Below, piece after piece: positions 37,150-60,738 of a stretch of 64,000 nt of DNA. Under the pieces are notes generated by a model, which was not told where the DNA came from, did not search any database, and saw only the letters and a program-made list of their open reading frames with translations. The stretch's first letter is position 1. Each line of letters opens with the position of its first letter. Source of the stretch: an uncultured Chitinophagaceae bacterium (GTDB lineage Bacteria; Bacteroidota; Bacteroidia; Chitinophagales; Chitinophagaceae); assembly GCA_903830285.1 (NCBI GenBank), contig CAIKTE010000180.1:2660-66659 (forward strand), in the 5' to 3' direction. The translations under genes were made by a program, and so were the position numbers.

Positions 37150-38385
37150 ATGCAAAATTGGCGAATTAAGGTTTCGTTATTTCTAAACTATTTTGTTTTT
37201 GCGATTTTATTGAACAGTTCGGGTATTGCCATCAAGCAAGTTCAAAACAATTTTCATGTCAATAGTCAGGCAGCGGCATGGATCGACCCATGCAAAGATC
37301 TTAGCATTGCCATCCTTTCCTTTTTAGTAGCATCGTTTATTGTAAGAATTGGTTACAAACGTGCCATGCTTATTGCATTAGGGATTGTATCAGCAAGTTG
37401 TTTTGTAATACCTAACGTGCCTCAATTCATTGCCATAAAAATACTGTTTGTAATTGTGGGTGCTTGTTTCGCATTGATCAAAATGAGTGTATATAGTACG
37501 ATTGGCATCATTACAAAAAGTTCAAATGAGCATATACGCTTTATGAATTTTATCGAATCCTTTTTTACTGTTGGGAATTTCGCTTTATATTTTATTTTCA
37601 GTTTTTATATAGATAATGCTCATCCCGAATCAACTTCCTGGCTAAAGTCATATTATTTAATAGGCGGAATTTCAATTCTGGCATTTCTTTTATTGCTTAC
37701 TTCAACATTAGATGAATCGAGTATTCAAATAAGTGCTACTAACTTGGCACCTGATTTTTTTGACATGTTCAAACTGATGCTTCAGCCACTGATCTTGTCC
37801 TTTATTTGCTGTGCATTCTTTTATGTTCTAATAGAGCAAAGCATACAGAATTTTCTGCCTACGTTTAATGAAAAAGTGCTGCAACTACCTAGTAAACTAA
37901 GTATTCAAATGGCCAGCATTCTGGCAGCATCATATGCTCTAGGACGATTCCTTGCAGGAATAGTACTTAAAAAAATTCCATGGTTCTATGTATTAATTAC
38001 TTGTTTGCTTTTAGCAGCAGGCATGGTTTTGATTGCCATGCCTTTGGCTCAGGATGCTGATGGCAGTCATGCTACCAATTGGTTCAATGCACCGATAGCA
38101 ACATATATTTTCCCGTTGATCGGTCTGTTTTTAGCTCCGATATATCCCTCCATTAATTCAGCAATTCTAAGTTCTTTACCGAAAGCAAAACATGGCTTGA
38201 TGTCGGGGCTTATCATTGTTTTTTCAGCGATCGGGGGCAGTGCCGGGTCATTAATTACAGGACATATTTTTGATGCCTTTGGCGGAAAAACAGCATTTTA
38301 TTTTTCGTTGGTTCCGATGACCATTCTCATCATATGTTTATCTGTATTTAAGAAATTGCAACCCAAACTAAAATCTTCAGAATAA
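37150..38385 (+). CDS. MFS sugar transporter (glucose/galactose-type FHS family-like)
   Basis: 12 TM layout with the LFLNYFVFAILLNSSGIAI opening. First gene of a same-strand cluster with trehalase. Confidence 0.8.
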   Translation: MQNWRIKVSLFLNYFVFAILLNSSGIAIKQVQNNFHVNSQAAAWIDPCKDLSIAILSFLVASFIVRIGYKRAMLIALGIVSASCFVIPNVPQFIAIKILFVIVGACFALIKMSVYSTIGIITKSSNEHIRFMNFIESFFTVGNFALYFIFSFYIDNAHPESTSWLKSYYLIGGISILAFLLLLTSTLDESSIQISATNLAPDFFDMFKLMLQPLILSFICCAFFYVLIEQSIQNFLPTFNEKVLQLPSKLSIQMASILAASYALGRFLAGIVLKKIPWFYVLITCLLLAAGMVLIAMPLAQDADGSHATNWFNAPIATYIFPLIGLFLAPIYPSINSAILSSLPKAKHGLMSGLIIVFSAIGGSAGSLITGHIFDAFGGKTAFYFSLVPMTILIICLSVFKKLQPKLKSSE

Positions 38386-38401
38386 TCAGCTTATTTATTT
38401 T

Positions 38402-48328: not shown

Positions 48329-48946
48329 TCAGATCTTCGTTGCATTTATGGTATGCATATCGTTTATTTTGTACAATACTTCTTCTAATCTCGCTTTGGG
48401 TATTCCGATCTTCAGCAAACAAAATAATTGCATTTCCTGATGGAGGATACTGCAGTTAAACTGCTTTACAACCGTCATCACTTCATTCATTTTTGTATAA
48501 TCGAAATGTAGTTCGTACTTTATTTCTACCTGCTTTTGCACAACAGGAATCATTTGCAAAGTCAATGCAGCAGACGTTTTATAAGCATTGATCAAACCGG
48601 GGACGCCCAATAATGTCCCACCAAAATAGCGAACAACTATTACTGAAATATCTGTCAATTGTTTACTGTCAATTTGATTTAAAATAGGTTTACCGGCAGT
48701 ACCGCTTGGTTCGCCATCATCACTCACTCGAAAATTATTGCCATCAATTCCAATGCGATAAGCAAAACAATGATGCACTGCTTTAGGATGTTCTTTCTTG
48801 AGTGTTTGTAAATAACTTTTGGCTTCGTCAACTGAAGTTATAGGATAGGCATAAGCAATAAACTTACTTCCCCTGTCTTTAAACTCAGCGATCGAAGATT
48901 GGCTGATGGTATAATAAAAGTCCTGTTCTATATTTGTTTTACTCAT
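48329..48946 (-). CDS. YigZ / IMPACT family protein
   Basis: KDRGSKFIAYAYP...HHCFAYR...DDGEPSGTAGKPIL..., the UPF0029 signature. 8-nt overlap with ribD. Confidence 0.88.
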   Translation of the reverse strand: MSKTNIEQDFYYTISQSSIAEFKDRGSKFIAYAYPITSVDEAKSYLQTLKKEHPKAVHHCFAYRIGIDGNNFRVSDDGEPSGTAGKPILNQIDSKQLTDISVIVVRYFGGTLLGVPGLINAYKTSAALTLQMIPVVQKQVEIKYELHFDYTKMNEVMTVVKQFNCSILHQEMQLFCLLKIGIPKARLEEVLYKINDMHTINATKI

Positions 48947-49979
48947 GTTTATAATATTGAATCAGGTCATTTCTATACTTTTCTTCTTTCATATATAAGG
49001 CGTTCCGTAACTGAGGAGCAGATAATCCATCCCCCACCAACAAGAATTCATTTGTGATCACCCTTACTTCGTCCCAAATATCTCCATCAATAAAAGATTG
49101 CAAGGTCTTCGCCCCTCCTTCCACCAAAATGCTTTGAATATTCAATTGATAACAGGCATCCATTATTTGTTGAATAATATTCTCAGCTTTCTCCAAGCGA
49201 TAAAATATTGTGTTTTTATCTTCTTCCTGTTTAATATTATTGAAAATAATTGTCTTTAGGCTATTATCGAATATTTTCAAAGTTGGTGAAAGTCGTAAGT
49301 GTTTATCCAGTACCAATCTTACTGGGCTCCTTCCTGCCGCGAATCGATTATTTAATGAAGGATCATCAAGTAATGCAGTATTGGTACCTATAAAAATAGC
49401 AGTCTCCTCACTCCTCCATTGATGCACTAATCGATTACTATATTCATTAGTGATGAATAATCGTTCTTTTGAAAGTGCAGCAATCTTATTGTCTACAGTT
49501 TGCGCCCATTTTAAAACAATATAAGGTCGGCGTTTTTCATGAAAAGTAAAGAAGCGTTTATTCAACTCTTTTGCCTCATTTGCTAAAATGTCAATTGTCA
49601 CCTCAATTCCCGCATGTTGCAATTTTTCAATTCCTTTTCCATTTACTTCTTCAAAAGGGTATCTACAGGCAATAACCACCCTGGGAATTTTATGTTGGAT
49701 GATCAGATCAGTGCAAGGAGGTGTTTTACCAAAATGAGCACAGGGTTCTAATGAAACATATAATACTGATTGACTGATGAGTGTCTTGTTTCTTTCTTCA
49801 ACACCATTAATACAAATTACTTCCGCATGAGCTTTGCCATATTGTTGATGATAGCCTTCGCCGATAATACGATCATCATACACCAAAATAGCAGCTACTA
49901 ACGGGTTGGGGGCAACATAACCCTTCCCTAACTTTGCCAGTTCCAGGCAACGATACATGTATGATTCATCTTTGGTCAC
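48939..49979 (-). CDS. ribD: bifunctional diaminohydroxyphosphoribosylaminopyrimidine deaminase / 5-amino-6-(5-phosphoribosylamino)uracil reductase
   Basis: PNPLVAAILV, HAEV, and SLEPCAHFGKTPPC (CMP/dCMP deaminase zinc site). C-terminal reductase domain LVEGGAKTLQSFI. Confidence 0.95.
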   Translation of the reverse strand: MTKDESYMYRCLELAKLGKGYVAPNPLVAAILVYDDRIIGEGYHQQYGKAHAEVICINGVEERNKTLISQSVLYVSLEPCAHFGKTPPCTDLIIQHKIPRVVIACRYPFEEVNGKGIEKLQHAGIEVTIDILANEAKELNKRFFTFHEKRRPYIVLKWAQTVDNKIAALSKERLFITNEYSNRLVHQWRSEETAIFIGTNTALLDDPSLNNRFAAGRSPVRLVLDKHLRLSPTLKIFDNSLKTIIFNNIKQEEDKNTIFYRLEKAENIIQQIMDACYQLNIQSILVEGGAKTLQSFIDGDIWDEVRVITNEFLLVGDGLSAPQLRNALYMKEEKYRNDLIQYYKHE

Positions 49980-50016: not shown

Positions 50017-50880
50017 ATGAGTATTCAGGAAGCATATAAAAAATTATTGTTTCAGTTATACGAATTATACGATAACCGTGAAGCTGCTAATATTGCAGAT
50101 ATGGTGATCGAGTTTATCACCGGTCAGAGAAAGACAGATCGTATCATCCATAAAACGATCCCTTTAAATTTTCAGCAGCAGGAGCAATTAGAGAACCTTA
50201 CACAAGAATTATTGCAATACAAGCCGGTACAATATGTGTTGAAAGAAACCTGGTTTTCAAGGATGAAATTTTTTGTGAATGAAGCAGTACTGATCCCTAG
50301 ACCAGAAACAGAAGAATTGATCAACTGGATCATTCAGGATATTAAAAGCAATAAAATTAAAGTGAACAGCATTCTTGATATTGGAACAGGTAGCGGATGT
50401 ATTCCTATATCATTAAAGAAAAAGAATGAATTACTTTCAGTTTCTGCACTTGACATAAGTGAAGATGCATTAAAAGTTGCTGCGAAAAATGCAGATGACC
50501 TCCATGCAGGTATCAATTTTATTTGTTCTGATTTTTTAGATGAAAATACCTGGAATGAATTTCCTGTTTATGACATCATCGTAAGCAATCCTCCTTATGT
50601 CAAACAATCCGAAAGCGAAACTATGCGAAAGATAGTTATCGATTTTGAACCACATCTTGCATTATTTGTAACAGATGAAGATCCTTTACTCTTTTATAAA
50701 AAAATAGCAAGGTTCGGAAAAGATCATCTTTCTAAAGAAGGAAATATTTTTGTGGAGATCAACGAATGTTTGGGTGAAGAAGTAATTGCTCTTTTCAAAA
50801 AAGAAAAATACAATGCTGAATTAAGAAAAGACATGCATGGAAAAGACAGGATGCTCAAAGCCAGCTTTATAAACAACTAA
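50017..50880 (+). CDS. prmC: peptide chain release factor N5-glutamine methyltransferase
   Basis: LIPRPETE, DIGTGSGCI, and the SNPPY catalytic motif. Confidence 0.92.
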   Translation: MSIQEAYKKLLFQLYELYDNREAANIADMVIEFITGQRKTDRIIHKTIPLNFQQQEQLENLTQELLQYKPVQYVLKETWFSRMKFFVNEAVLIPRPETEELINWIIQDIKSNKIKVNSILDIGTGSGCIPISLKKKNELLSVSALDISEDALKVAAKNADDLHAGINFICSDFLDENTWNEFPVYDIIVSNPPYVKQSESETMRKIVIDFEPHLALFVTDEDPLLFYKKIARFGKDHLSKEGNIFVEINECLGEEVIALFKKEKYNAELRKDMHGKDRMLKASFINN

Positions 50881-52448
50881 ATGATCTTATAAATAGCCCA
50901 ATTCTTTGTTTCGAACATGAGGATCGGGCGAAATTGCTGGCGTATTTCCATTTGGTGAATATTATAATCATTCAATACCGTAAAGCTTCTCAGCCGATTG
51001 ATCGATTTTGCCACACAAACAAAACGGGCTCCTAATTTCGGATTTTCAACAATCGTTATAAAGTTATTATTATTTGGAAGAACCACTGTTTTCAATGTTC
51101 TTAAATGCGCCATTATTTTATATGCCGCTGCATCATCCATTAGTATTTTATGCGTTTCATCTGTAATATCAGAAATGTAAGAAGCCAACTGATATTCTTC
51201 TGAAGTCTGACGTTCATCTTTCCAGATACTCACCTTCTTTAAAGAAGCGAAAAACAATCTTTCTTCCACATCGCTTGAATGAATGAAATAGAAAATTCCC
51301 GTGAATATATTTGCGATTGCCACAGCCATAATGATTGGATAGAGCAATTTTGTTTTGTATTTCTTACCGGCATAAACACTTAGTCCCAATAATGCAATCA
51401 CCAGAAAAATAAGATAATATTCGATGGTGATATATATTTGATTATCGAGCAGAATGATCGAAATAAGTATGAATGGTGCCAGCAGTGTAAACAATTCGTA
51501 TAAGTTTCCTTTAAATAAAACAAAGAGCAGTATCAATAAGGGAGTTAACAGTAGTATGTATATCTGAAAGATGATGTGATTCTGTTCACCAACATTATCC
51601 ACGGCACCGGATGCGATCAGATTACCGATGGATTCGTTTCCGGTAACATGCCAATTGGCGTATTGACTGGTCAAAAAATAAGTTGCATCGCCCGCATGAT
51701 AGAAATTCAAAGTCTTAAATAAGTATAATGCCCCAATAGGCAATAAGAATACGATGATATAAATAGCCAATGTTCTGTTTGCTAATTTTCTTCTTTGAGA
51801 ACGATTATTCAACGATTCGAAATATTGTAAAACAGGAGGCTGGTCTTTTTGAAGTTTCAAACCCTGTAATGAAACAAGGAAAATAAAAGGAAAGAATGCC
51901 AAAAGCATCCAGATAAAATTATAGTCACAAAACACCAGACAGGAAAGATAAATACTTGCCATTGACAGATAGAAAGAAGTCTGGCTTCGATAATAATTGA
52001 AAAGACTTCTGAATACTAAATAAAAGAATAAAAGTATGGAAGCCACACCACGTCCAGACGTTGCGGCATAAATGATACCCGGATGAAAAACAAAGACCAA
52101 TAATAACATCGGCAAAAACACCCTGCGAGGTAATTTTGATTTTGCAAAATCATTCAGCAATAAGAAGAATAAAATAGTTGTGAATGCAGTTGATGCCAAA
52201 ATTGGTGCAAAGGGATAGCCAAATGGAGTAAAAACAATAGAAGATAAAAATATCAAACTAGGAAAAGTAGTACCTAATGTAAGCAATGTGTTATCATCGG
52301 TTTCAAAAAGCAATTTTATTTTTTCTGCGATAAACATTGCTTCAGAATGTTCATACCCTGTTCGATGCAACACCCAGGAAACAAGGATATAGTACACCAT
52401 CAGAAACAGCGCAATAAATATAGCTATGTATTTTTTTAAAAAAATCAT
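50877..52448 (-). CDS. polytopic membrane protein (about 12+ TM, GT-C/ArnT-PMT-like topology) with C-terminal soluble domain; last gene of the BcsB/GT2 operon
   Basis: Hydrophobic helices through about residue 400, then a roughly 120-aa hydrophilic tail. 5-nt gap to the upstream GT2 gene. 4-nt convergent overlap with prmC (CTAA). Confidence 0.7.
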   Translation of the reverse strand: MIFLKKYIAIFIALFLMVYYILVSWVLHRTGYEHSEAMFIAEKIKLLFETDDNTLLTLGTTFPSLIFLSSIVFTPFGYPFAPILASTAFTTILFFLLLNDFAKSKLPRRVFLPMLLLVFVFHPGIIYAATSGRGVASILLFFYLVFRSLFNYYRSQTSFYLSMASIYLSCLVFCDYNFIWMLLAFFPFIFLVSLQGLKLQKDQPPVLQYFESLNNRSQRRKLANRTLAIYIIVFLLPIGALYLFKTLNFYHAGDATYFLTSQYANWHVTGNESIGNLIASGAVDNVGEQNHIIFQIYILLLTPLLILLFVLFKGNLYELFTLLAPFILISIILLDNQIYITIEYYLIFLVIALLGLSVYAGKKYKTKLLYPIIMAVAIANIFTGIFYFIHSSDVEERLFFASLKKVSIWKDERQTSEEYQLASYISDITDETHKILMDDAAAYKIMAHLRTLKTVVLPNNNNFITIVENPKLGARFVCVAKSINRLRSFTVLNDYNIHQMEIRQQFRPILMFETKNWAIYKII

Positions 52449-52453
52449 ATTCT

Positions 52454-54325
52454 TTATGTTGCAGCCGCTACAGCAGCATTTACGTTTGCAGTTGCAGAAG
52501 ATGAAACTTTAGTGAGTCCGTGATTTGTCTTTTCCCAATAAAATGGTTTGTATATCAATTGCCAGAGGCCTTTATAAGCTGCAATGCTGTGCATCAACCA
52601 ATATACCGGATTCAGAATGGCAAATAATATCAATTCATAAAATCTACGTTTGAACACTGCAAGCATATTAATGTACACCATCAGTACATTGCCTGCTATA
52701 AAATTAAATGTTGCGATATACAATACCCAATCCGGGAAAAGTTGTCTAACAAAATTAAAATTGAAAATGATGTAGAATAAAAAGAATACCAACAATACCG
52801 GATACAATAAAAATGTAAATGAAGTTCCGCCAATAAAGAAGTTGAATCCAAAGAAGCCCTGCCATCCAATTCTTCGTATCAATGAAACGGGATTACGCAT
52901 GTGTACCAAATAAGTTTGCATATACCCCTTGATCCAGCGTGAACGTTGACGGATCCAGTTGAATGGTTCGTTGTTTGCCTCTTCCAATGTAGTGCTGTTA
53001 ACAACACCTATCTTATATTGTTTATCGTATACTCTCACTCCAAGATCCGCATCTTCTGTAACATTAAACGGATCCCAAGCACCTAGTTCCATTAATTTAT
53101 TTAATTTGAAATGGTTGCTCGTTCCTCCTAAAGGAATAGGCACATCCAAAGTTTCCAAACCGGGCAACATATAATCAAACCAATAAGAATATTCCAAAGT
53201 GAACATTCTTGTCAAAAGGTTTTCATTTTTATTAAAGTAATTCAGTGCTCCTTGTAAAACAACAAATTCATCAGGTAATTTCCTGAATAATACAACTACC
53301 TTTTTTAACTGATCAGAATCTGGAACATCTTCCGCATCATAAATGGTTAATAATTCTCCTCGTGAAAAATACAATCCGTAATTACAGGCTTTCGGTTTTG
53401 TTTTTGGTGCGTGAAAAGGAACAACAATGGTTTCAAAGTTAGCCGGGAAATCCAGGTTTCTTACTGCATTCAGTGTTTTATCATCATCTTCTTCTATCAA
53501 CAATTTAACGTCGAGTTTGGCTCTTGGATAGTCGAGACTACGCAGATTCCATATTAGTTTACGAATGAGTTTATCTTCCTTATAAACCGGCAACAGGATC
53601 GTGTAAACGGGCAATGAAGCTTCGTCTACTCTTTTTACATCTGCCTTTGAAACCGCTTCATGCAATTCGGACATAGAGCCTCTTAGTGCCAGATACAATT
53701 TAAATAAGATGGAGAAAAGGAAAAATACACTCGACAAAAGATTGATAATAATGATTGTAGGCGAAAAATACAGGATCAGCATCGTGAGATTGAAAGCAAT
53801 AAAACCAAAAACAAATATCAATTGTGCATTGGTAAATGTTACCAACCCAGAGCTTTCAGCGTCTTTACGCATTAGACTGAATACTGCTTCTTTTACATAA
53901 AATTCTCCCCTTGTTTTATGTGCCAGCCAAGTAATATCCAGATCTGATGCAGCAACAAATCTGATCTTCATCCTGAATTTTACATATAGGCTGTTCAGCA
54001 ATTTTTCATCCAACGGGTCTGCCGCAGCAACTAATAATGTTCCATCGATTTCTTTTCGCAAAGGGATATACAGAAAAGAATTGAGGTGCTGAATATCGCA
54101 TTGATGAATATACACATCATCCATTTCTTCATTGCGTACATCAATCAATGGGAAGTTCTCTTTTTCCAAAAAATCGACATACACTTTACGTGTCAAAAAT
54201 CCGAAATTCAGTGCAGCTTTGATAGGTGCATAACTGTACATATTGGCTATCGCTTCTACCTCATCCAATTTCGCATGAGTAAAGAAGCCCGTTTCTGCCA
54301 TCTTATGTAATCCGCACCGGGTCAT
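52454..54325 (-). CDS. processive family-2 glycosyltransferase (cellulose-synthase-like) with N-terminal T2SSE_N/MshEN-like domain
   Basis: N-terminal LLVAAADPLDEKLLNSLYVKFRMKIRFVAASDLDI (GspE-N type). Two TM helices. GT2 core with YDAEDVP (DxD), TEDADLGVR (TED) and QRSRWIKG (QxxRW). C-terminal TM bundle ending FYWEKTNHG. No PilZ. Confidence 0.85.
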   Translation of the reverse strand: MTRCGLHKMAETGFFTHAKLDEVEAIANMYSYAPIKAALNFGFLTRKVYVDFLEKENFPLIDVRNEEMDDVYIHQCDIQHLNSFLYIPLRKEIDGTLLVAAADPLDEKLLNSLYVKFRMKIRFVAASDLDITWLAHKTRGEFYVKEAVFSLMRKDAESSGLVTFTNAQLIFVFGFIAFNLTMLILYFSPTIIIINLLSSVFFLFSILFKLYLALRGSMSELHEAVSKADVKRVDEASLPVYTILLPVYKEDKLIRKLIWNLRSLDYPRAKLDVKLLIEEDDDKTLNAVRNLDFPANFETIVVPFHAPKTKPKACNYGLYFSRGELLTIYDAEDVPDSDQLKKVVVLFRKLPDEFVVLQGALNYFNKNENLLTRMFTLEYSYWFDYMLPGLETLDVPIPLGGTSNHFKLNKLMELGAWDPFNVTEDADLGVRVYDKQYKIGVVNSTTLEEANNEPFNWIRQRSRWIKGYMQTYLVHMRNPVSLIRRIGWQGFFGFNFFIGGTSFTFLLYPVLLVFFLFYIIFNFNFVRQLFPDWVLYIATFNFIAGNVLMVYINMLAVFKRRFYELILFAILNPVYWLMHSIAAYKGLWQLIYKPFYWEKTNHGLTKVSSSATANVNAAVAAAT

Positions 54326-54385
54326 AGTTTTATTATTTTACGCTGTAAGAATAATTCCTGATTCACGAAAATTCCCTTCTCTTTA

Positions 54386-56413
54386 TTATACAATTTCCTG
54401 TGACTTACGAACCCTGTTTCTTACAAAGAAGAAAGCCAATAATACTAATCCCAATAAGATCAATAACAACAAATACTTATAATTTTCCCAGAAGATGGCT
54501 AATTTATTTTTTTCACCACGATATAAAACAGAACTGGAATCTTCGGGCATTTTAAAGAAATAGTTACTGATACCATTACTGTTTGAGATCAGCACATTAC
54601 TTTCAATCTCAGTAAGCTGTGTACTTAGATTTTTAATAACACTTGCAAATGCATCTTTATGACTACTGTCCCCCAAAGAAGTAACTAATAAAACCGTATT
54701 ACCTTTTTCTCTGAAAATTTGAGCCATCCCACTATTGGAGAAGTCATTAATGGAATAAGTTAATTGACCCTTACTGTCTTTGTACAATTGAAAATCCCTG
54801 TCGAATTGTACCGGAAGATTGGTGAAATTTTTGACAAACTGGTCATTGCGTTGCAATAATGCGATCAGATTAAAACCCCTTAAATCATCGAGTGATGATT
54901 TATCTGCAGCTACTAGCTGAGGCACGATCAATTTATTGAAATCATTCTTGATCGGTGCATTTAACTGATACAATAACTCACCAACAGAAGAAACAATATT
55001 CGAATTATATAAGCTTGGTGATATTACTATTTTAGAAGGTACTTTCCTGAACTCTGCGGGGAAATTAAAGAAGCTGTAAAACTTATTTTCTCTTTCACCA
55101 CTGAAAGTAAGTGTTGAACTTTTTACGTTTACAAATGCAAAGAAGTTACTAAATCCATCCTTACAAATGTTTGTACCAGGATGAAATCTGAATTCGACTT
55201 CTAACGTATTGAATTTGCTTAACAGATAAGGCTTCAGATCGATATCATCAATGAAGTTTGTTCTGTCCATTAATGATGCATTGAAAATCAAATTCTGGTT
55301 CAGATAGATATTCAAAAAGCCTCTGTCATCAGGTTTTAAAACAGAGAAATAACTTTCTAGATGAAAAGTAAGTTTGTTGGGAATTGCATTGAATTCACTT
55401 AGAGAGAAATTGTATTTCTGTCTTAATCCGCCAATACCTTCCATCAATGCAGGATTACCTCCAATGTCTTCCAATGCAGTGATCAATGGTGATGGATTAT
55501 CAATAGAAACATTGCTTGGCACGCCTTCATTGATCAGCATTCTGTCAGAAAATGCGCTACTGATCCTTTTGTTGCTAGCTAGGGTATTGATCGCTTTGCG
55601 ATAACCGGTTGCATCAGCACCGGTAACAACCAACACTAATTTTGAGGTAAAGCCAATATTCACTCTTGCAACCATAATTAATCCCTGACCTTGTGCCAGA
55701 GAAGGAATAACCTGTTTAACCAGGAGTGGTAATTTATCGGAACTACCAATAACGATACCGCTTGGAACTGTATCTTGTTGCTGATACATTCCTGTATGAA
55801 CAGGTAATGGTGAATTTTGTTTTAATAAAGTATAAATAATTCCACCGGCAGTAAGATCATCCAGATCTGATGAGGCAGGTGTATAAACCGAATTAAATTC
55901 CTGAATCCATTCTTTGATACTACGTTTATAAGAAAGGGGTCCTGAATTATTCAGCGCTAAGAAAGATGAATTCTTTACAGCTATCCAGCAAGCAGGGTTA
56001 TCCACGTCCTTACAATATTCATCGCCAACACTCATTTTAGCCGACACTTTCAGTTTAATGAATCTTCCATCAGGCTGTAAATATTTTCTGTTCATTGGTA
56101 CAATAACAGTGAACATGGTATCAACAGCAGAGGCAATGATCCTTTGTGTGAATACAGGTTCATCCTTTAAATAAACCACCACAACAGAATTATTAGGATT
56201 CAATACCTGAGATGCGCGGATATTAATGAATATCTTGCTTTGATCTACATTGTCGTCAGGTTTTACTTTTAAAAAGTAGCTGAGCGATCCTGTAATACCA
56301 ACGATTGATTCATCATCATAACCCATAGATTCGAATGTTCGTTGAGATTGGGCAAACAAGCCGCCAATACTGCTGATTAAAAAAACCAAAAAAAGAAGAC
56401 ATTTAGATTTCAT
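54386..56413 (-). CDS. BcsB-like cellulose synthase regulatory/periplasmic subunit
   Basis: Signal peptide. Two internal repeats (..VVVYLKDEPVF...IKLKVSA...EYCKDVDNPACWIAVKNSS.. and ..LNIYLNQNLIF...LEVEFRFHPGTNICKD..). These parallel the BcsB pattern (E. coli ..KVYLNDELMG...DVCENPASTTLWLDV.. as I recall it). Single C-terminal TM anchor LLLLILLGLVLLAFFFV. Confidence 0.8.
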   Translation of the reverse strand: MKSKCLLFLVFLISSIGGLFAQSQRTFESMGYDDESIVGITGSLSYFLKVKPDDNVDQSKIFINIRASQVLNPNNSVVVVYLKDEPVFTQRIIASAVDTMFTVIVPMNRKYLQPDGRFIKLKVSAKMSVGDEYCKDVDNPACWIAVKNSSFLALNNSGPLSYKRSIKEWIQEFNSVYTPASSDLDDLTAGGIIYTLLKQNSPLPVHTGMYQQQDTVPSGIVIGSSDKLPLLVKQVIPSLAQGQGLIMVARVNIGFTSKLVLVVTGADATGYRKAINTLASNKRISSAFSDRMLINEGVPSNVSIDNPSPLITALEDIGGNPALMEGIGGLRQKYNFSLSEFNAIPNKLTFHLESYFSVLKPDDRGFLNIYLNQNLIFNASLMDRTNFIDDIDLKPYLLSKFNTLEVEFRFHPGTNICKDGFSNFFAFVNVKSSTLTFSGERENKFYSFFNFPAEFRKVPSKIVISPSLYNSNIVSSVGELLYQLNAPIKNDFNKLIVPQLVAADKSSLDDLRGFNLIALLQRNDQFVKNFTNLPVQFDRDFQLYKDSKGQLTYSINDFSNSGMAQIFREKGNTVLLVTSLGDSSHKDAFASVIKNLSTQLTEIESNVLISNSNGISNYFFKMPEDSSSVLYRGEKNKLAIFWENYKYLLLLILLGLVLLAFFFVRNRVRKSQEIV

Positions 56414-56424
56414 ATTGTTTCTAT

Positions 56425-57801
56425 TTAAAATTGGGTACAGTTAAACTCTATTCTGTAATAATTTCCAGTGTTTTCATCGCTACTATATGCAAAAGTTCCT
56501 CCCATGGTTTCAGTTAATTTCTTAGCCACAGAGAATCCCATTTCTGAGTCAACTTTCACAGATTCTTTTAACGATCTGAATGGTTGTAATTTAGTGAACA
56601 GTTCATTCATCTTTGCAACCCCAACCAATTTCCCGATATTAATTACTTCAATCACACACTTATCGTTTTGCCTATTGGTATGCACTGTTATTATCGAATC
56701 TACTTCTGCATACCGGATCGCATTGGTTAACAGTTTAAATAAGACCTGACTGAGAAATAATCTGTCTAAATGCACCATGATTGGTGATGCAGACAAATGC
56801 AATTGCAGATTGATCTGTTTTATCTGAGCCGAATCTGCCACATCCAACACTGCCTGTTCTACTTCCGGACTAATATCAAAGTTTTCTTGCGTAAACTGAA
56901 CTTTGGCCTCATCCCTATCAGCAGAAGCAGCCAATTTCTCAGAAAGATAATTGAGTTTATCATTGCCCGTGCTAATGTAATTTAGTATTTCTTTCTGCTC
57001 TTCGGAAAGGTTATCCGATTTGTTTTTCAACAGGTCTATTGACATCTGAATAGAGCCCGTAAAATTTCTGAAATCATGGAGCATAATATTCAGGGTATTA
57101 TGCCTGTAATCGTTCAGCACTTTCAATTTTCTATTCGCATCTTCAATTACATATTTCTGATCGTTGATCTTTTCATTTTGTTCTAATTGGCGATTTTTTG
57201 CCTCATCGATCAAAATATTTTTAGCGATCTCTCTTTTCAGGATCGCATAGCGATTGTAGGCGATCAAACAAGAAAAAGCTGACACAACAAAATACACTCC
57301 GCCGCCATGCGAGATCAGTAAATTGTATTTATCCACCCTTTCTCTGTTTGAGAAAAGTATGAATATCACAAAATATGTCAACAAACAAATAAATACAGAA
57401 TAGATAGGTGGCCAGAAAATAGCTGTATTGATCAGCAAGATCGCAACTGAAAGAATAAGAAAATAAGGCATTACATGATTGAGCGGGATCATTCCGCAAA
57501 AAAATGAGTGCATCAGGAGGTTGACCACAATAAACCAAGTGATGGTTTTTATATAATTCCACTCTCGCTTATTGCCAATGATATAAATCGTATAAGAGAT
57601 AACAGCTACAATTAATCTGATCAGCATCAGATCGGTCCACATATCTTTCAGAAAAAGAAAATCGAGTAGCCAAAAGAGCGGAAGGGAAAAAAGAACTGTC
57701 CACATTACCACATTGGCATAATAGATACCTTTTTTATTAAGTTCGTCAGCAAACGCCTCTTTATTTATATTTACAAAGGAAAATTTAAAATTATTGGGCA
57801 T
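56425..57801 (-). CDS. membrane sensor histidine kinase (about 6 TM N-terminal domain, DHp + CA), no partner response regulator nearby
   Basis: H-box IMLHDFRNFTGSI and N-box LLTNAIRYA. The G1/G2 boxes look degenerate (EVINIGKLVG; SEMGFSVAKK). 11-nt gap to the BcsB-like gene. Confidence 0.8.
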   Translation of the reverse strand: MPNNFKFSFVNINKEAFADELNKKGIYYANVVMWTVLFSLPLFWLLDFLFLKDMWTDLMLIRLIVAVISYTIYIIGNKREWNYIKTITWFIVVNLLMHSFFCGMIPLNHVMPYFLILSVAILLINTAIFWPPIYSVFICLLTYFVIFILFSNRERVDKYNLLISHGGGVYFVVSAFSCLIAYNRYAILKREIAKNILIDEAKNRQLEQNEKINDQKYVIEDANRKLKVLNDYRHNTLNIMLHDFRNFTGSIQMSIDLLKNKSDNLSEEQKEILNYISTGNDKLNYLSEKLAASADRDEAKVQFTQENFDISPEVEQAVLDVADSAQIKQINLQLHLSASPIMVHLDRLFLSQVLFKLLTNAIRYAEVDSIITVHTNRQNDKCVIEVINIGKLVGVAKMNELFTKLQPFRSLKESVKVDSEMGFSVAKKLTETMGGTFAYSSDENTGNYYRIEFNCTQF

Positions 57802-57840
57802 ATAGGGTATTATGCATTCTGAAAATCAATTCTTTATTCT

Positions 57841-58944
57841 GTGAAAATATACATTAAATTAATAAGAGTTTTTTTAGGGATAAATTTATTGTTTGGTGTA
57901 TCACTATCCACATTAAGTGCAAAACTTAGGGATGATAATCTGGCAGACATCAAAAAAAACTTAGGAGGCGGGGTGAATATCTCTCTTTTTGAACATTACT
58001 GGACCACTCCAGATTTTTTATATCAGGAAGATATTTCAGGTAAATTAAATAATATAGCTAAAGCTGGTTTTAAAACAGTTCGTATCCCCGTTGCTTTTGA
58101 TAATTTTTTAGAGCCAAAATCCTTCAATCTGCAACCCCAGATTATCAGCAAATTGAAAGATATTTACAATACTTGTGCTGCAAAAAGGCTCAATCTTATC
58201 ATCACATACCATTACGGTAAACTCAATAACAATAATAGCCCGGGAGAAATAGAGCGCATTTCTTGGATGTGGAAACAGATCCAGCGTCAATTTTCCGGAC
58301 AGGGATATTCCAGCCTTTTTTTTGAATTATATAATGAACCTGTGATGAACGGTATTTTGTGGAAAAAAACCATCACTACTATTATCCAGAATTTACGGTA
58401 TGAAGACAAAAGCAGGATATATATTATTGGTGCGGTTAATTATAACAGCCTGGATGAACTAAATGTAATGGGCAGATTACCCGATGATAAACTGTTTTAC
58501 AGCTTCCATTTTTACGAACCATTTATTTTTACACATCAGGGTGCAGACTGGACAAATAACAAAACTGCCCTTTTAAAATTGCCTTATCCTTACAAAAAAA
58601 GCAGAATGCCTGATGCTGTATTTATAGAAAACAGCGGTACAAACGATAAAGAACTAAGCAGATATCCACATGAAGCCACCCATGAATATATCCGTGAACG
58701 CTTTAAAACCATCGCAGAAACCTGCTTAAGAAATAATATGCCGCTTATCTGTACCGAAGTGGGTGTTATTAAATTAGCCGACCGTAAATCCAGAAAAAAT
58801 TATTTACTAGATGTAACAGGCGATTTGAGTAACCTGGGCGTTCAAGCAATTTTATGGGATTATGACGATAAATTCTCCATCAAAAGAAACGATATTGACA
58901 TCGAAAGGTATTTACATAAGTGGTTGATGAAAAGTAAAAATTAA
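57841..58944 (+). CDS. glycoside hydrolase family 5 (cellulase/endo-beta-glycanase), secreted
   Basis: Signal peptide. FELYNEP (acid/base Glu in the NEP motif), H.Y, and CTEVG (nucleophile Glu). GTG start per the track, 39 bp from the divergent kinase start. Confidence 0.85.
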   Translation: MKIYIKLIRVFLGINLLFGVSLSTLSAKLRDDNLADIKKNLGGGVNISLFEHYWTTPDFLYQEDISGKLNNIAKAGFKTVRIPVAFDNFLEPKSFNLQPQIISKLKDIYNTCAAKRLNLIITYHYGKLNNNNSPGEIERISWMWKQIQRQFSGQGYSSLFFELYNEPVMNGILWKKTITTIIQNLRYEDKSRIYIIGAVNYNSLDELNVMGRLPDDKLFYSFHFYEPFIFTHQGADWTNNKTALLKLPYPYKKSRMPDAVFIENSGTNDKELSRYPHEATHEYIRERFKTIAETCLRNNMPLICTEVGVIKLADRKSRKNYLLDVTGDLSNLGVQAILWDYDDKFSIKRNDIDIERYLHKWLMKSKN

Positions 58945-58983: not shown

Positions 58984-59892
58984 ATGGCCTCGGTTCTTTC
59001 CTTACACAATATCAGTAAACGTTATGGTTCCATTCAGGCTTTAAACGATGTTTCTTTTGAAGTACCTGAAGGAAGTGTATTTGGCATTCTCGGTCCGAAT
59101 GGCAGTGGCAAAACCACCATGCTGAGTATCATTCTGGATATCCTGAGACCGAATACCGGGAATTTTTCCTGGTTCGGAGTATTGGGCGGATCACCTGATT
59201 GCAGAAAAATGGTCGGATCTCTTTTAGAAACGCCTAACTTTTATCATTACCTATCTGCAGTTGATAACCTGAATATCACTCAAGCCATCAGCGGAAGGGG
59301 AACAGCAGTAGATATTGATGCAGCATTGGAGATCGTTAATCTTACACAACGCAAAAAAAGCAAGTTCAGTACTTATAGTTTGGGCATGAAACAACGCCTT
59401 GCCATTGCTGCTGCATTTTTAGGCAATCCCAAAGTATTGGTTTTGGATGAACCTACGAATGGATTGGATCCAGTTGGCATTGCTGAAATAAGACGACTCA
59501 TTAAAGAATTAGCAGCAAGAGGTGTAACCATTATCATGGCAAGCCATTTATTGGATGAGGTAGAGAAAGTTTGTACGCATGTAGCTATTTTGAAAAAAGG
59601 GGATTTATTAACCGCCGGAGCTGTTGATGAGGTGCTGGTTAATGAAGATATTGTTGAATTGAGTGCTTCAGATATTGACTTATTAGAAAATGTTTTAAAA
59701 GATTATCCTTTAAAGACCAATCTTAAAAAAGAAGAAAATATGCTTCAGCTGTTCTTTCCTGTTGGAACTGCCAACCTTGAAAACATAAACCAATTCTGTT
59801 TCGAAAAAGGAGTAACACTAAACATGTTATTACACAAGAAGAAAAGTTTAGAAACTAAATTCTTAGAACTTACCAGTGCAACCAATAACTAA
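58984..59892 (+). CDS. ABC transporter ATP-binding protein
   Basis: Walker A GPNGSGKTT, signature YSLGMKQRL, Walker B VLVLDEPTNGLD. Confidence 0.92.
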   Translation: MASVLSLHNISKRYGSIQALNDVSFEVPEGSVFGILGPNGSGKTTMLSIILDILRPNTGNFSWFGVLGGSPDCRKMVGSLLETPNFYHYLSAVDNLNITQAISGRGTAVDIDAALEIVNLTQRKKSKFSTYSLGMKQRLAIAAAFLGNPKVLVLDEPTNGLDPVGIAEIRRLIKELAARGVTIIMASHLLDEVEKVCTHVAILKKGDLLTAGAVDEVLVNEDIVELSASDIDLLENVLKDYPLKTNLKKEENMLQLFFPVGTANLENINQFCFEKGVTLNMLLHKKKSLETKFLELTSATNN

Positions 59893-59910
59893 TCTTTCAA
59901 ACTTATCAAT

Positions 59911-60738
59911 ATGTTACAATTATTAAAGATCGAATGGCTTAAAATAAAAAAGTATCCTACTTTTTGGTGGATGCTGGGCATTGTTGCATTGACTTATCCG
60001 GGTATTAATTATATGTTTCATCATGTGTATGAAAGCGTGATCGGTAGAAAAGACATGGCTGGAAATGTTGCCAAATTTTTATTAGGCAACCCTTTTGCAT
60101 TTCCCGATGCATGGCATTCAGTTGCTTATTTTTCTTCATTCTTCGTAATAGTTCCGGCATTATTGATCATTATGCTGGTAAGTAATGAATACACTTATAA
60201 AACATCCAGGCAAAATATTATTGATGGGTGGAGCCGCAATCAGTTTATCAATGCCAAAATAATTGATGTTACTATCATCAGTTTAATTGTTACTATTTCT
60301 TATACGATTGTTGCGGCAATTTTCGGATTTTATTATTCCGATACTGTTCGTGTAACCCGCTGGGCAGAAGAACTGCAGTACATTCCTTTATTTTTTCTTC
60401 AAACATTTGCCTATCTGAGCTGGGCATTTTTATTAGCATTTTTATTGCGCAGGGCATTTATTGCATTGGGTATTTTCATTTTTTATTCGCTTATCATCGA
60501 AAACATCATTAAAGGTTATTTCAAGTTTAGAGAATGGGGCATCCGCGAATATTTGCCCTTCGAAATATCTAACAGGCTTTTGCCGATGCCTAATTTTTTA
60601 GGAAAATTAAACGAAGCATCCAATGATGCCTATAAAAAATCGCTGATAGATGTCAACTGGCATGTGCTGTATACTTTAATTCTTACATCAGCTATCTGGT
60701 GGCTGTGCTATTACCTGAATAAGAAAAGAGATCTATAA
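59911..60738 (+). CDS. ABC-2 type transporter permease
   Basis: Six hydrophobic helices, directly downstream of the ATPase gene. Confidence 0.8.
   Translation: MLQLLKIEWLKIKKYPTFWWMLGIVALTYPGINYMFHHVYESVIGRKDMAGNVAKFLLGNPFAFPDAWHSVAYFSSFFVIVPALLIIMLVSNEYTYKTSRQNIIDGWSRNQFINAKIIDVTIISLIVTISYTIVAAIFGFYYSDTVRVTRWAEELQYIPLFFLQTFAYLSWAFLLAFLLRRAFIALGIFIFYSLIIENIIKGYFKFREWGIREYLPFEISNRLLPMPNFLGKLNEASNDAYKKSLIDVNWHVLYTLILTSAIWWLCYYLNKKRDL

What the first reader, a model, noticed from the sequence alone, without database searches (positions are those of the whole stretch)
50877..58944. Cellulose-synthase-like exopolysaccharide locus with non-canonical regulation in a Bacteroidota background
A tight minus-strand operon has four genes:
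- A sensor kinase at 57801-56425, followed by an 11-nt gap.
- A BcsB-like protein at 56413-54386, followed by a 60-nt gap.
- A processive GT2 at 54325-52454, followed by a 5-nt gap.
- A 523-aa polytopic membrane protein at 52448-50877.

A secreted GH5 glycanase is transcribed divergently, only 39 bp from the kinase start.

The GT2 has the D, DxD (DAED), TED and QxxRW (QRSRW) hallmarks of processive beta-glycan synthases such as BcsA, PgaC, NodC and HAS. Its partner has the duplicated BcsB repeat with the C..(D/E)NPA..W motif and a C-terminal TM anchor. GH5 would be the functional analogue of BcsZ (GH8) in classical bcs operons.

Differences from described bcs types:
- The gene order is B then A.
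- There is no PilZ domain.
- There is no BcsC/TPR-porin, BcsQ/E/G or other known accessory gene.
- A kinase and an unknown GT-C-like membrane protein are embedded in the operon.
Basis: partly seen in the sequence, partly recalled or inferred. Interest (0 to 1): 0.72.

Follow-up and report, generated by a model that had tools for sequence, protein, structure and literature searches.

The report
Bacteroidota Xag-type exopolysaccharide synthase locus
This is a real five-gene locus for making and trimming a secreted sugar polymer; it is not a cellulose (bcs) operon but a Bacteroidota version of the little-studied Xag/Sfz system of Xanthomonas and iron-oxidizing bacteria, one that appears to have lost the usual c-di-GMP switch and gained a histidine-kinase-like gene.

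Summary
All five ORFs, the gaps between them and the catalytic motifs are as described.
- The partner protein is a full-length BcsB fold.
- The GT2 has the motifs of a processive, BcsA-like synthase.
- The 523-aa protein has a GT-C fold.
- The divergent gene is a secreted GH5.

The locus is not a new bcs type. It is orthologous to bcsB-like/xagB/xagC/xagD of Xanthomonas and of stalk-forming iron oxidizers (sfz1-4). That cluster type is already published but has not been characterized biochemically, and it coexists with a canonical BcsA(PilZ)-BcsB in Xanthomonas.

The GT2 carries an N-terminal MshEN (T2SSE_N) domain. Many relatives outside Bacteroidota keep canonical tandem c-di-GMP motifs (14 of 45 loci). 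None of 31 Bacteroidota loci does. In 29 of those 31, a kinase-like gene sits at the head of the operon, against 0 of 45 elsewhere. GH5 replaces the GH113 found in other phyla. The small outer-membrane barrel XagA is missing from the window.

The polymer is unknown, and cellulose is not established.

Verdict: a new variant of a known, poorly understood kind. Interest is moderate.

The parts
56425..57801 (-). Histidine-kinase-like membrane protein (458 aa). It has about 6 TM helices at the N-terminus, then a DHp-like region with H242 and a GHKL ATPase domain. It is the first gene of the operon.
   Evidence: - Pfam: HATPase_c E 1.6e-12; HisKA below its cut-off.
- Only generic histidine-kinase hits in NCBIfam and one in the PDB.
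- Orthologs sit directly upstream of the BcsB-like gene in 29 of 31 Bacteroidota loci and in 0 of 45 loci from other phyla.
- The phospho-acceptor His is present here but replaced in Pedobacter and in two Flavobacteriia. The G1 box is degenerate (N-I-G-K-L-V-G).
- No receiver-domain ORF anywhere in the window.
54386..56413 (-). Divergent BcsB-family periplasmic subunit (675 aa), equivalent to Sfz1: signal peptide, two repeats of a beta-sandwich plus an alpha/beta domain, and a C-terminal TM anchor (helix 637-674).
   Evidence: - Pfam BcsB E 2.4e-19, in two stretches.
- AF2 model: pLDDT 78, pTM 0.67.
- The top 22 Foldseek hits are all BcsB: 9fmt E 7.5e-31, TM about 0.6 over about 660 columns; 4hg6_B E 4e-17.
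- Internal repeat, BLASTP E 0.01.
- Its 69.6 bits compare with 725 bits for canonical Xanthomonas BcsB, so it is a distant subfamily.
52454..54325 (-). XagB/Sfz2-type processive GT2 synthase (623 aa): N-terminal MshEN-like domain, 2 TM helices, the GT-A catalytic domain, then C-terminal TM helices.
   Evidence: - Pfam: Glyco_trans_2_3, Glyco_tranf_2_3 and MshEN.
- Best solved relatives are BcsA (4hg6, 4p00, 5ej1; E about 5e-10), with TED and QRxRW aligned.
- Far below the NCBIfam cut-offs for PgaC (58 vs 422 bits) and CelA (55 vs 699 bits).
- 46% identical to the X. cucurbitae XagB ORF and 43% to Mariprofundus PV-1 Sfz2.
- JGI names some homologs 'glycosyltransferase XagB'.
- Invariant DAED, TED, QRxRW, PLGGTSNH and WxKTxHG.
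53906..54325 (-). MshEN-like regulatory domain of the GT2 (residues 1-140). Residues 1-58 form the helical subdomain, which has lost the c-di-GMP-binding residues. Residues 59-137 form the T2SSE_N core.
   Evidence: - Pfam MshEN matches residues 59-137.
- The relaxed 24-residue motif of Wang et al. 2016 (PMC5013675) is absent here and in 0 of 120 close homologs.
- The alignment shows R1 and G3 replaced in both motifs, while G10 and the hydrophobic positions are kept.
- Tandem cores spaced 29 aa apart occur in 0 of 31 Bacteroidota loci and 14 of 45 others.
50877..52448 (-). XagC/Sfz3-family polytopic membrane protein (523 aa) with a predicted GT-C glycosyltransferase fold and a small C-terminal periplasmic alpha/beta domain.
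   Evidence: - No Pfam, NCBIfam or PDB sequence match.
- AF2 model: pLDDT 82.6, pTM 0.85.
- The top 30 Foldseek hits are all GT-C enzymes (DPY19, STT3/PglB/AglB, ArnT, ALG9, AftA, Emb, PMT), with probability about 1.0 for the top 20 and TM 0.42-0.51.
- hhalign against Mariprofundus Sfz3: probability 96.6%, E 6e-10.
- The iterated profile reaches Xanthomonas XagC at E 5e-25 and finds a member right after the GT2 in about 70 of 80 loci.
57841..58944 (+). Secreted GH5 endo-beta-1,4-glycanase (367 aa), transcribed divergently. It is the functional counterpart of XagD/Sfz4 (GH113) and of BcsZ/CcsZ.
   Evidence: - Pfam Cellulase E 3e-30.
- Catalytic NEP and TEVG are present.
- Nearest solved enzymes: endoglucanase H 7vt5 (E 5e-28), FnCel5A, CelC, TmCel5A and 6uje (E 2e-19).
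- A GH5 ortholog flanks 26 loci, all Bacteroidota. The distantly related GH5 in Sporomusaceae L040 (E 9e-19) is a weaker match. GH113 takes this place in 10 loci from other phyla.
57802..57840 (.). A 39-bp divergent intergenic region between the kinase-like gene and the GH5.
   Evidence: Read directly from the sequence. The sigma-70 consensus scan showed no enrichment (39 sites found, 39.1 expected) and does not apply to Bacteroidota promoters. No promoter was defined.

Best explanation
The locus encodes a synthase-dependent exopolysaccharide machine of the Xag/Sfz type, in a form specific to Bacteroidota.

Shown by homology, fold and synteny:
- A processive XagB-type GT2 with its own membrane channel.
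- A BcsB-fold periplasmic partner anchored by a C-terminal helix.
- An XagC-type membrane protein with a GT-C fold.
- A secreted clan GH-A glycanase.
These four travel together across more than ten phyla.

Inferred mechanism:
1. The GT2 polymerizes a nucleotide-sugar at the cytoplasmic face and threads a beta-linked chain through the membrane.
2. The BcsB-like protein receives and guides the chain in the periplasm.
3. The GT-C-fold protein modifies the chain on the periplasmic side using a polyprenyl-phosphate-sugar donor, for example by adding branches. Alternatively it may transfer the chain.
4. The GH5 trims or releases the polymer.

Inferred regulation: in many other phyla the MshEN domain of the GT2 has canonical c-di-GMP motifs and probably activates the enzyme as it does in NfrB. 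In Bacteroidota the binding residues are gone, and a membrane histidine-kinase-like protein has been recruited as the first gene of the operon. Several relatives also have a stand-alone receiver protein in the locus. Control is therefore most likely exerted by two-component signalling, transcriptionally or directly on the MshEN-like domain, rather than by c-di-GMP.

The backbone is probably beta-1,4-linked (mannan, glucan or mixed). It is not shown to be cellulose.
For: Family identity:
- The GT2 is 41-50% identical to homologs from other phyla, including the Xanthomonas XagB ORF and Mariprofundus PV-1 Sfz2.
- Xanthomonas XagB and PV-1 Sfz2 share the MshEN+GT2 architecture.
- PV-1 reads BcsB (Pfam E 3e-20) > MshEN-GT2 > 501-aa protein > GH113. 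This is the published bcsB/xagBCD = sfz1-4 cluster (PMC4643136, PMC8250860).
- The 523-aa family is homologous to Sfz3 and to XagC.

Synteny:
- GH5 | HK > BcsB-like > GT2 > GT-C-like is found in Chitinophagaceae, Pedobacter, Mucilaginibacter and Flavobacteriia.
- The BcsB-like > GT2 > GT-C-like trio is also found in Ignavibacterium, Verrucomicrobia, Zeta-, Gamma- and Alphaproteobacteria, Gemmatimonadota, Thermotogae and cyanobacteria.

Folds: BcsB and GT-C.

Processivity motifs.

Distinct from bcs: Xanthomonas has a canonical BcsA(PilZ)-BcsB next to xag, and Ferriphaselus has a separate bcsABZC.

Regulation:
- A G-to-L change in this motif gave the strongest loss of NfrB-dependent N4 plating among the MshEN mutants tested (PMC8669469).
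- The kinase-like gene is confined to Bacteroidota loci.
- Stand-alone receiver genes lie inside the locus in L029, L031, L032, L033 and L037.

Hydrolase: GH5 and GH113 exchange in orthologous positions. In Xanthomonas, Clp represses xagABC and activates the endo-beta-1,4-mannanase gene manA (PMC7694446).
Against: - No biochemical datum exists for any member. The product, the donor sugar and the activity of the GT-C-fold protein are all unknown.
- The GT-C assignment rests on a predicted structure with moderate TM-scores (0.42-0.51) and no sequence match.
- A quick cross-phylum alignment found no universally conserved acidic residue in the first periplasmic loop.
- No polyprenyl-phosphate-sugar synthase gene is linked to the locus.
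- The window has no outer-membrane component. The XagA-like barrel found in relatives is absent, so secretion across the outer membrane is unexplained.
- Loss of c-di-GMP binding is inferred from the sequence only.
- The link between kinase gain and motif loss is confounded by phylogeny, because it rests on a single clade.
- The kinase has no receiver partner within 64 kb.
- Orthologs of the kinase in Pedobacter, Wenyingzhuangia and Algibacter lack the phospho-acceptor His, which does not fit a simple phosphorelay.
Confidence: 0.7

Rival explanations
1. It is a true bacterial cellulose synthase: a divergent BcsA-BcsB pair making unmodified beta-1,4-glucan, with the GH5 as its BcsZ. In other words, a fourth bcs operon type.
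For: - The best solved relatives of the GT2 are BcsA.
- The partner has the BcsB fold.
- The GH5 resembles endoglucanases, including 6uje, the GH5 of the clostridial cellulose locus (PMC7710045).
Against: - The GT2 scores 55 bits against a 699-bit cut-off for NCBIfam CelA. It scores equally weakly against PgaC.
- There is no PilZ.
- BcsA's FFCGS acceptor motif is aligned to an invariant PLGGTSNH.
- Xanthomonas and Ferriphaselus carry this system in addition to a canonical bcs operon.
- Orthologous loci use GH113, a mannanase family, instead of GH5.
- An extra GT-C-fold gene is conserved in the locus.
Confidence: 0.15
2. Regulation is still by c-di-GMP. The MshEN-like domain binds the nucleotide through a variant site, as NfrB or proteobacterial XagB do, and the kinase only controls transcription.
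For: - The domain is under strong purifying selection. The helix-2 signature IKAALNFGFLTRK is conserved from Chitinophagaceae to Ignavibacterium.
- G10 and the hydrophobic scaffold are kept.
- One Pedobacter ortholog keeps a motif-I-like QLGKLLLDEGLI.
- Many non-Bacteroidota relatives also fail the strict pattern.
Against: - R1 and G3 are replaced in both motifs in all 120 close homologs and in every Bacteroidota locus.
- A G-to-L change in this motif gave the most profound defect among the NfrB MshEN mutants tested.
- No window ORF has a GGDEF or HD-GYP signature, though 64 kb says little about the whole genome.
Confidence: 0.15
3. The product is not a free exopolysaccharide but a periplasmic or envelope-bound glycan. 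The GT-C-fold protein acts as a transferase or ligase that attaches the chain to a lipid, a protein or peptidoglycan, which would explain the missing outer-membrane exporter.
For: - No XagA-like barrel or other porin is present in the window or in the Chitinophagaceae and Mucilaginibacter loci.
- GT-C enzymes include transferases acting on proteins and lipids.
- Some database names call the GT2 'beta-monoglucosyldiacylglycerol synthase'.
Against: - Xanthomonas xagA and xagB mutants lose biofilm (PMC3609779).
- Related loci in Pedobacter, Flavobacteriia and Xanthomonas do encode the putative barrel.
- A secreted endoglycanase is conserved in the locus.
- The BcsB partner is typical of exported polymers.
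Confidence: 0.12

Closest known systems
xagABCD of Xanthomonas (Tao et al. 2010; PMC3609779)
   Same: - XagB has the same MshEN+GT2 architecture and is 46% identical.
- XagC belongs to the same family as the 523-aa protein (iterated profile, E 5e-25).
- A clan GH-A hydrolase follows in the operon (XagD, GH113).
- The locus is needed for biofilm.
   Different: - Xanthomonas has no BcsB-like gene and no kinase in the operon.
- It has XagA, a putative small outer-membrane barrel, which the window lacks.
- XagB keeps near-canonical c-di-GMP motifs.
- The hydrolase is GH113 rather than GH5.
bcsB-like/xagBCD = sfz1-sfz6 of stalk-forming iron oxidizers (Kato 2015, PMC4643136; Koeksoy 2021, PMC8250860)
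   Same: - The same core order: BcsB-like > MshEN-GT2 > XagC/Sfz3 > hydrolase.
- Sfz1 is described with two BcsB-like domains, a signal peptide and a C-terminal TM helix, as here.
   Different: - Sfz2 carries canonical MshEN motifs, duplicated.
- The hydrolase is GH113.
- Sfz5, a weak XagA-like match (E 9e-10), and Sfz6 are present.
- There is no kinase.
- Those papers list Sfz3 as of unknown function.
BcsA-BcsB-BcsZ cellulose synthase
   Same: - A processive GT2 with TED and QxxRW.
- A BcsB-fold partner with a C-terminal anchor.
- An associated endoglucanase-type hydrolase.
   Different: - No PilZ and no BcsC, BcsQ, BcsE or BcsG.
- The gene order is B then A.
- The GT2 is far below the CelA cut-off.
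- There is an extra GT-C-fold subunit.
- The system coexists with true bcs in the same genomes.
NfrB-NfrA-YbcH of E. coli (PMC8669469)
   Same: A processive GT2 fused to an MshEN domain that controls polysaccharide secretion.
   Different: - In NfrB the MshEN domain is C-terminal, canonical, and binds c-di-GMP.
- Its partners are a TPR beta-barrel (NfrA) and YbcH, not BcsB or a GT-C protein.
- Here the domain is N-terminal and degenerate.
ccsZABHI clostridial cellulose synthase (PMC7710045)
   Same: A GH5 enzyme, rather than GH8, serves as the locus hydrolase. Its structure (6uje) is among the relatives of the window GH5.
   Different: CcsA has PilZ. CcsB is not homologous to BcsB. The host is Gram-positive.

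Membership tests
Xag/Sfz-type synthase system (bcsB-like/xagB/xagC/xagD) | XagB-type GT2 with an N-terminal MshEN/T2SSE_N domain | tested here: met
   Pfam finds MshEN plus GT2 in the window protein, in Xanthomonas XagB and in PV-1 Sfz2. Identity is 43-46%.
Xag/Sfz-type synthase system (bcsB-like/xagB/xagC/xagD) | XagC/Sfz3-family membrane protein encoded immediately downstream of the GT2 | tested here: met
   The gap is 5 nt. hhalign to Sfz3 gives probability 96.6%. The iterated profile hits XagC at E 5e-25 and finds a member in 73 of 80 loci.
Xag/Sfz-type synthase system (bcsB-like/xagB/xagC/xagD) | Associated glycoside hydrolase of the XagD/Sfz4 type (GH113) | tested here: not met
   The window has a GH5, not a GH113. 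GH5 takes this place in 26 Bacteroidota loci. Both families belong to clan GH-A (established CAZy classification), so this is an analogous replacement, not an ortholog.
Xag/Sfz-type synthase system (bcsB-like/xagB/xagC/xagD) | XagA (small secreted putative beta-barrel) | tested here: not met
   An HMM built from eight orthologs hits Xanthomonas XagA at E 2e-34 but no window ORF at E <= 0.01.
Bcs cellulose synthase | BcsA catalytic subunit: the CelA equivalog with a C-terminal PilZ domain | tested here: not met
   TIGR03030 scores 55 bits against a 699-bit cut-off, and there is no PilZ.
Bcs cellulose synthase | BcsB subunit | tested here: met
   Pfam BcsB E 2.4e-19. The Foldseek top 22 hits are all BcsB, best E 7.5e-31. 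The protein is divergent: 70 bits against 725 bits for canonical BcsB.
Bcs cellulose synthase | The product is beta-1,4-glucan | not testable with these tools
   This requires isolating the polymer and analysing its linkages.
MshEN c-di-GMP receptor domain | Two tandem 24-residue motifs, RLGxxLLxxGLLxxxxLxxxLxxQ, 5 residues apart (PMC5013675) | tested here: not met
   There is no match even to the authors' relaxed pattern. R1 and G3 are replaced in both motifs. None of 120 close homologs matches.
MshEN c-di-GMP receptor domain | T2SSE_N/MshEN core fold (Pfam PF05157) | tested here: met
   35.3 bits against a 23.1-bit cut-off, residues 59-137.
MshEN c-di-GMP receptor domain | Binds c-di-GMP | not testable with these tools
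   This needs DRaCALA, ITC or MST on residues 1-145.
GT-C glycosyltransferases | GT-C membrane fold | tested here: met
   The AF2 model has pTM 0.85. The top 30 Foldseek hits are exclusively GT-C enzymes.
GT-C glycosyltransferases | Conserved catalytic acidic residue in the first periplasmic loop | tested here: inconclusive
   E33, E36 and E42 are conserved within the close family, and E36 across FCB and Verrucomicrobia. No acidic residue is invariant across phyla in a quick alignment. D175 is the majority residue in at least 60% of sequences.
GT-C glycosyltransferases | Sequence membership in a described GT-C family (PMT_2/ArnT, STT3, DPY19 and others) | tested here: not met
   There is no hit in Pfam, NCBIfam or PDB sequences.
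Two-component sensor histidine kinase | HisKA phospho-acceptor domain with the conserved His, plus an HATPase_c with N, G1 and G2 boxes | tested here: inconclusive
   HATPase_c is significant, but HisKA is below its cut-off. H242 and the N-box Asn are present. In the G1 box the Asp is replaced by Asn. Orthologs in three genera have lost the His.
Two-component sensor histidine kinase | Cognate response regulator | tested here: not met
   No receiver-domain ORF in the 64-kb window. Stand-alone receivers are present in the loci of some relatives.
GH5 | Pfam Cellulase domain with the catalytic NEP acid/base and the nucleophile Glu | tested here: met
   E 3e-30. NEP at 165 and TEVG at 305.

The most novel reading that the evidence does not exclude
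In Bacteroidota the c-di-GMP switch of an ancient, widespread synthase has been replaced. The degenerate MshEN domain, which keeps a lineage-specific conserved signature (hKxxLxhGhhxR), no longer reads c-di-GMP. Instead it is gated directly by the operon's kinase-like membrane protein, or by a phosphorylated single-domain receiver, or by a different nucleotide. This would be a new post-translational control mode for a synthase-dependent polysaccharide. The same machine would also be the first case of a cytoplasmic processive GT2 channel working in series with a periplasmic GT-C enzyme that decorates the nascent chain.
Probability: 0.2. Interest if true: 0.75.

Novelty: new variant of a known kind. 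Interest (0 to 1): 0.5.

Why it matters
Xag/Sfz-type loci have been linked to Xanthomonas biofilms and proposed as the source of the twisted stalks of iron-oxidizing bacteria. Even so, neither the polymer nor the role of XagC/Sfz3 and XagA/Sfz5 is known.

This analysis gives the family a coherent parts list:
- a processive GT2 with an MshEN sensor;
- a BcsB-fold partner;
- a GT-C-fold subunit;
- a clan GH-A hydrolase;
- often a small putative outer-membrane barrel.

Soil and freshwater Bacteroidota (Sediminibacterium, Mucilaginibacter, Pedobacter and some Flavobacteriia) carry a highly conserved version, and several of these genera are cultivable. They could therefore serve to determine the polymer and to test how a c-di-GMP-type receptor domain is re-used once its binding residues are lost.

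Tried and rejected
- **Promoter and terminator scan.** It found 39 sigma-70-like sites against 39.1 expected. It is uninformative and unsuited to Bacteroidota promoters.
- **The ~1300-aa GT2 relatives as BcsB-GT2 fusions.** I suspected Rosetta-stone fusions. Pfam shows 4-6 tandem MshEN domains instead.
- **Single-sequence hhalign of the 523-aa family against Xanthomonas XagC.** It was not significant (probability 0.3%). The relationship appeared only with an iterated profile. I accept it because the hits sit immediately downstream of the GT2 in nearly every locus.
- **A loosened 11-residue core pattern for the c-di-GMP motif.** It gave false positives in Bacteroidota, at a conserved LLGEKYVK segment 284 residues before TED. 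I therefore report only the tandem criterion.
- **The GT2 gene upstream of Xanthomonas xagA as a GtrB-like polyprenyl-phosphate-sugar synthase.** Such an enzyme could supply the GT-C protein. It has no GtrB or DPMS-like hits and does not recur in other loci.
- **Profile search of the 523-aa family against PDB sequences.** Nothing.
- **Plasmid tblastn.** It gave only distant, poorly annotated relatives.
- **The ABC transporter next to the GH5.** It is a neighbour only in some Chitinophagaceae, so it is not part of the module.
- **Literature searches.** Searches for XagC as GT-C, for BcsB in Bacteroidetes and for c-di-GMP in Bacteroidetes found nothing relevant in the held library.
- **Rfam and tRNA scans of the window.** Both empty.
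- **One script timed out** and was re-run with faster alignment settings.

Full report
**Observation.**
- Kinase-like gene: 56425-57801(-)
- BcsB-like gene: 54386-56413(-)
- GT2: 52454-54325(-)
- 523-aa membrane protein: 50877-52448(-)
- Divergent GH5: 57841-58944(+)

The gaps are 11, 60 and 5 nt, and 39 bp separate the divergent start codons. The window is 33-41% G+C. All five proteins occur, residue for residue, in public assemblies. Close homologs are named Chitinophagaceae, Sediminibacterium or Parasediminibacterium.

**Domains.** Pfam finds the following.
- Kinase: HATPase_c (E 1.6e-12), with a HisKA match below the cut-off.
- Partner protein: BcsB (E 2.4e-19).
- GT2: GT2 models plus an N-terminal MshEN/T2SSE_N domain (35 bits against a 23-bit cut-off), and no PilZ.
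- GH5: Cellulase (E 3e-30).
- 523-aa protein: nothing.

NCBIfam places the GT2 far below the equivalog cut-offs of both PgaC (58 vs 422 bits) and CelA (55 vs 699 bits). DAED, TED and QRSRW are present. They are invariant in an alignment reaching 35% identity. The best solved relatives are BcsA structures, with TED and QRxRW aligned.

**Folds.** An AlphaFold2 model of the BcsB-like protein (pLDDT 78, pTM 0.67) shows four elements:
- a signal peptide;
- two beta-sandwich modules;
- two alpha/beta modules;
- a C-terminal helix (637-674).

Its top 22 Foldseek matches are all BcsB: E. coli 9fmt at E 7.5e-31 with TM about 0.6 over about 660 columns, and 4hg6_B at E 4e-17. The two halves are detectably related (BLASTP E 0.01), but the DNPA motif occurs only once.

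The model of the 523-aa protein (pLDDT 82.6, pTM 0.85) matches only GT-C glycosyltransferases in its top 30 hits: DPY19, STT3/PglB/AglB, ArnT, ALG9, AftA, Emb and PMT. Probability is about 1.0 for the top 20, and TM is 0.42-0.51. A profile of the family finds nothing among PDB sequences.

**What the locus is.** JGI labels several GT2 homologs 'glycosyltransferase XagB'. I kept 80 loci from more than ten phyla. I called ORFs in these loci and searched them with profiles of the window proteins.
- **Bacteroidota.** Every locus with enough flanking sequence has the order GH5 | kinase-like > BcsB-like > GT2 > GT-C-like. This covers Chitinophagaceae, Pedobacter, Mucilaginibacter, Wenyingzhuangia, Algibacter, Flavimarina and UBA2664.
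- **Other phyla.** The trio BcsB-like > GT2 > GT-C-like also occurs in Ignavibacterium, Chthoniobacterales, Mariprofundus, Gamma- and Alphaproteobacteria, Gemmatimonadales, Thermotogae and Chroococcidiopsis.
- **Mariprofundus ferrooxydans PV-1.** The genes read BcsB (Pfam E 3e-20) > MshEN-GT2 > a 501-aa protein homologous to the window's 523-aa family (hhalign probability 96.6%) > GH113. This is the bcsB-like/xagBCD cluster of Kato et al. 2015 (PMC4643136). It is also the sfz1-4 cluster of Koeksoy et al. 2021 (PMC8250860), where Sfz3 is listed as of unknown function.
- **Xanthomonas cucurbitae.** XagB has the same MshEN+GT2 architecture. The next ORF, XagC, joins the GT-C-like family with an iterated profile (E 5e-25). 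XagD is a GH113. A canonical BcsA (with PilZ) and BcsB (725 bits) lie 5 kb further on.

The Xag type is therefore a paralogue of bcs, not a variant of it. The window carries its Bacteroidota form.

**Regulation.** Pfam's MshEN model covers only residues 59-137. The c-di-GMP-binding tandem motifs defined by Wang et al. 2016 (PMC5013675) would lie in residues 1-58. Four observations bear on this.
1. The authors' own relaxed pattern matches nothing there, nor in any of 120 close homologs.
2. The alignment shows that the helical scaffold, G10 and the hydrophobic positions are kept, but R1 and G3 are replaced in both motifs.
3. Relatives from Gamma-, Alpha- and Zetaproteobacteria, Chloroflexota and Gemmatimonadota carry canonical motifs 29 residues apart. 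Xanthomonas XagB is near-canonical.
4. Tandem cores occur in 14 of 45 non-Bacteroidota loci and in 0 of 31 Bacteroidota loci.

In NfrB, a Gly-to-Leu change in this motif gave the strongest defect (PMC8669469).

The kinase-like gene shows the opposite distribution. It is found in 29 of 31 Bacteroidota loci, the two exceptions being cut by contig ends, and in 0 of 45 others. In the window protein the phospho-acceptor His and the N-box Asn are present and the G1 box is degenerate. In Pedobacter, Wenyingzhuangia and Algibacter the His is replaced and Pfam no longer finds HisKA.

Some FCB relatives have a stand-alone receiver gene inside the locus. Some alphaproteobacterial loci have a receiver fused to a borderline GGDEF domain right after the GT-C-like gene. 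The window has no receiver ORF and no GGDEF or HD-GYP signature.

I infer that two-component-type input has replaced c-di-GMP input in this lineage. That inference rests on one clade and on sequence only.

**Product.** The GH5 is closest to endoglucanases such as FnCel5A, TmCel5A, CelC and 6uje. The reference list of PMC7710045 cites TmCel5A structures solved with both cello-oligosaccharides and mannotriose. Orthologous loci use GH113, a family I know as beta-mannanases (own knowledge of CAZy). In Xanthomonas, Clp represses xagABC and activates the endo-beta-1,4-mannanase gene manA (PMC7694446). BcsA's FFCGS segment aligns to an invariant PLGGTSNH. A beta-1,4-linked backbone is plausible, but cellulose is not established.

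**Export.** Pedobacter, Flavobacteriia, UBA2664, Ignavibacterium, a Synergistaceae MAG and an Aquificota MAG encode a secreted protein of about 277 aa, ending in an aromatic residue, between the BcsB-like gene and the GT2. An HMM of these proteins hits the ORF directly upstream of Xanthomonas xagB, that is XagA, at E 2e-34. It hits PV-1 Sfz5 weakly, at E 9e-10. The only library hint is a sub-threshold match to a beta-barrel DUF. No window ORF matches. How the window organism would export the polymer across its outer membrane is unexplained.

**Verdict.** The framing as a new bcs type is not. The locus is a new variant (degenerate MshEN, kinase-like gene, GH5, no XagA) of a known but uncharacterized kind. 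Three assignments were not found in the held literature and may be useful leads:
- the GT-C fold of XagC/Sfz3;
- the XagA/Sfz5 family link;
- the phyletic contrast between motif loss and kinase gain.

Noticed in passing
L008 9133-9963; L010 9052-9885; L033 9117-9950; L068 8729-9751; L052 14351-15298: A family of secreted proteins of about 277-340 aa ending in an aromatic residue, likely a small outer-membrane beta-barrel. It lies between the BcsB-like gene and the GT2 in Pedobacter, Flavobacteriia, Ignavibacterium and others. It matches Xanthomonas XagA (E 2e-34) and, weakly, Mariprofundus Sfz5 (E 9e-10). It is absent from the window and from the Chitinophagaceae and Mucilaginibacter loci.
   Followed up: partly
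L029 5105-5470; L031 13318-13692; L037 10929-11309; L032 4954-5316; L033 5164-5526: Stand-alone receiver-domain proteins of about 120 aa (Pfam Response_reg, E 1e-23 to 1e-28) lie inside the xag-like locus of several FCB-group relatives. None is present in the window.
   Followed up: partly
L051 13386-14342; L067 13262-14314; L063 13199-14230: In alphaproteobacterial loci the gene right after the GT-C-like gene encodes a receiver fused to a borderline GGDEF domain (23-25 bits, cut-off 23.8), or to an unassigned C-terminal region in L063. This may be a dedicated local c-di-GMP module.
   Followed up: partly
P0369, P0373, P0377 (distant GT2 relatives; no genomic context): Relatives of 950-1320 aa carry 3-6 tandem MshEN domains in front of the same GT2 module.
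   Followed up: partly
L068 16498-21038: X. cucurbitae has a canonical BcsA (Cellulose_synt + PilZ) and BcsB (Pfam 725 bits) 5 kb downstream of xagABCD, so the two synthase systems sit side by side.
   Followed up: yes
L008 5682-7103; L010 5669-7036; L032 5765-7075; L033 5759-7075; L001 3193-4572: Orthologs of the operon's kinase-like gene have lost the phospho-acceptor His (to E, Q or Y) but keep their position in the operon. This suggests a role that does not need autophosphorylation.
   Followed up: partly
window 6185-9355 (+): A 1056-aa sensor kinase with a 4HB_MCP/TarH periplasmic module, three PAS domains and an HATPase_c. No receiver gene was found in the window.
   Followed up: no
window 37150-39895 (+): An MFS transporter followed by a trehalase (Pfam E 7e-142), likely a small trehalose-utilization pair.
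   Followed up: no
window 11801-13006 (-) and 48939-49979 (-): The riboflavin genes ribBA and ribD lie 36 kb apart. No FMN riboswitch or any other Rfam family reached its gathering score in the window, and there are no tRNA genes in 64 kb.
   Followed up: partly
window 58984-60738 (+): An ABC ATPase and an ABC-2-type permease lie directly downstream of the GH5. The same pair neighbours the locus in some Chitinophagaceae (L004, L006, L027) but not in Mucilaginibacter or Pedobacter, so it is probably unrelated to the polysaccharide module.
   Followed up: partly
window 56468-56749 (+): A 93-aa ORF lies antisense inside the kinase-like gene. It has no support and is most likely spurious.
   Followed up: no
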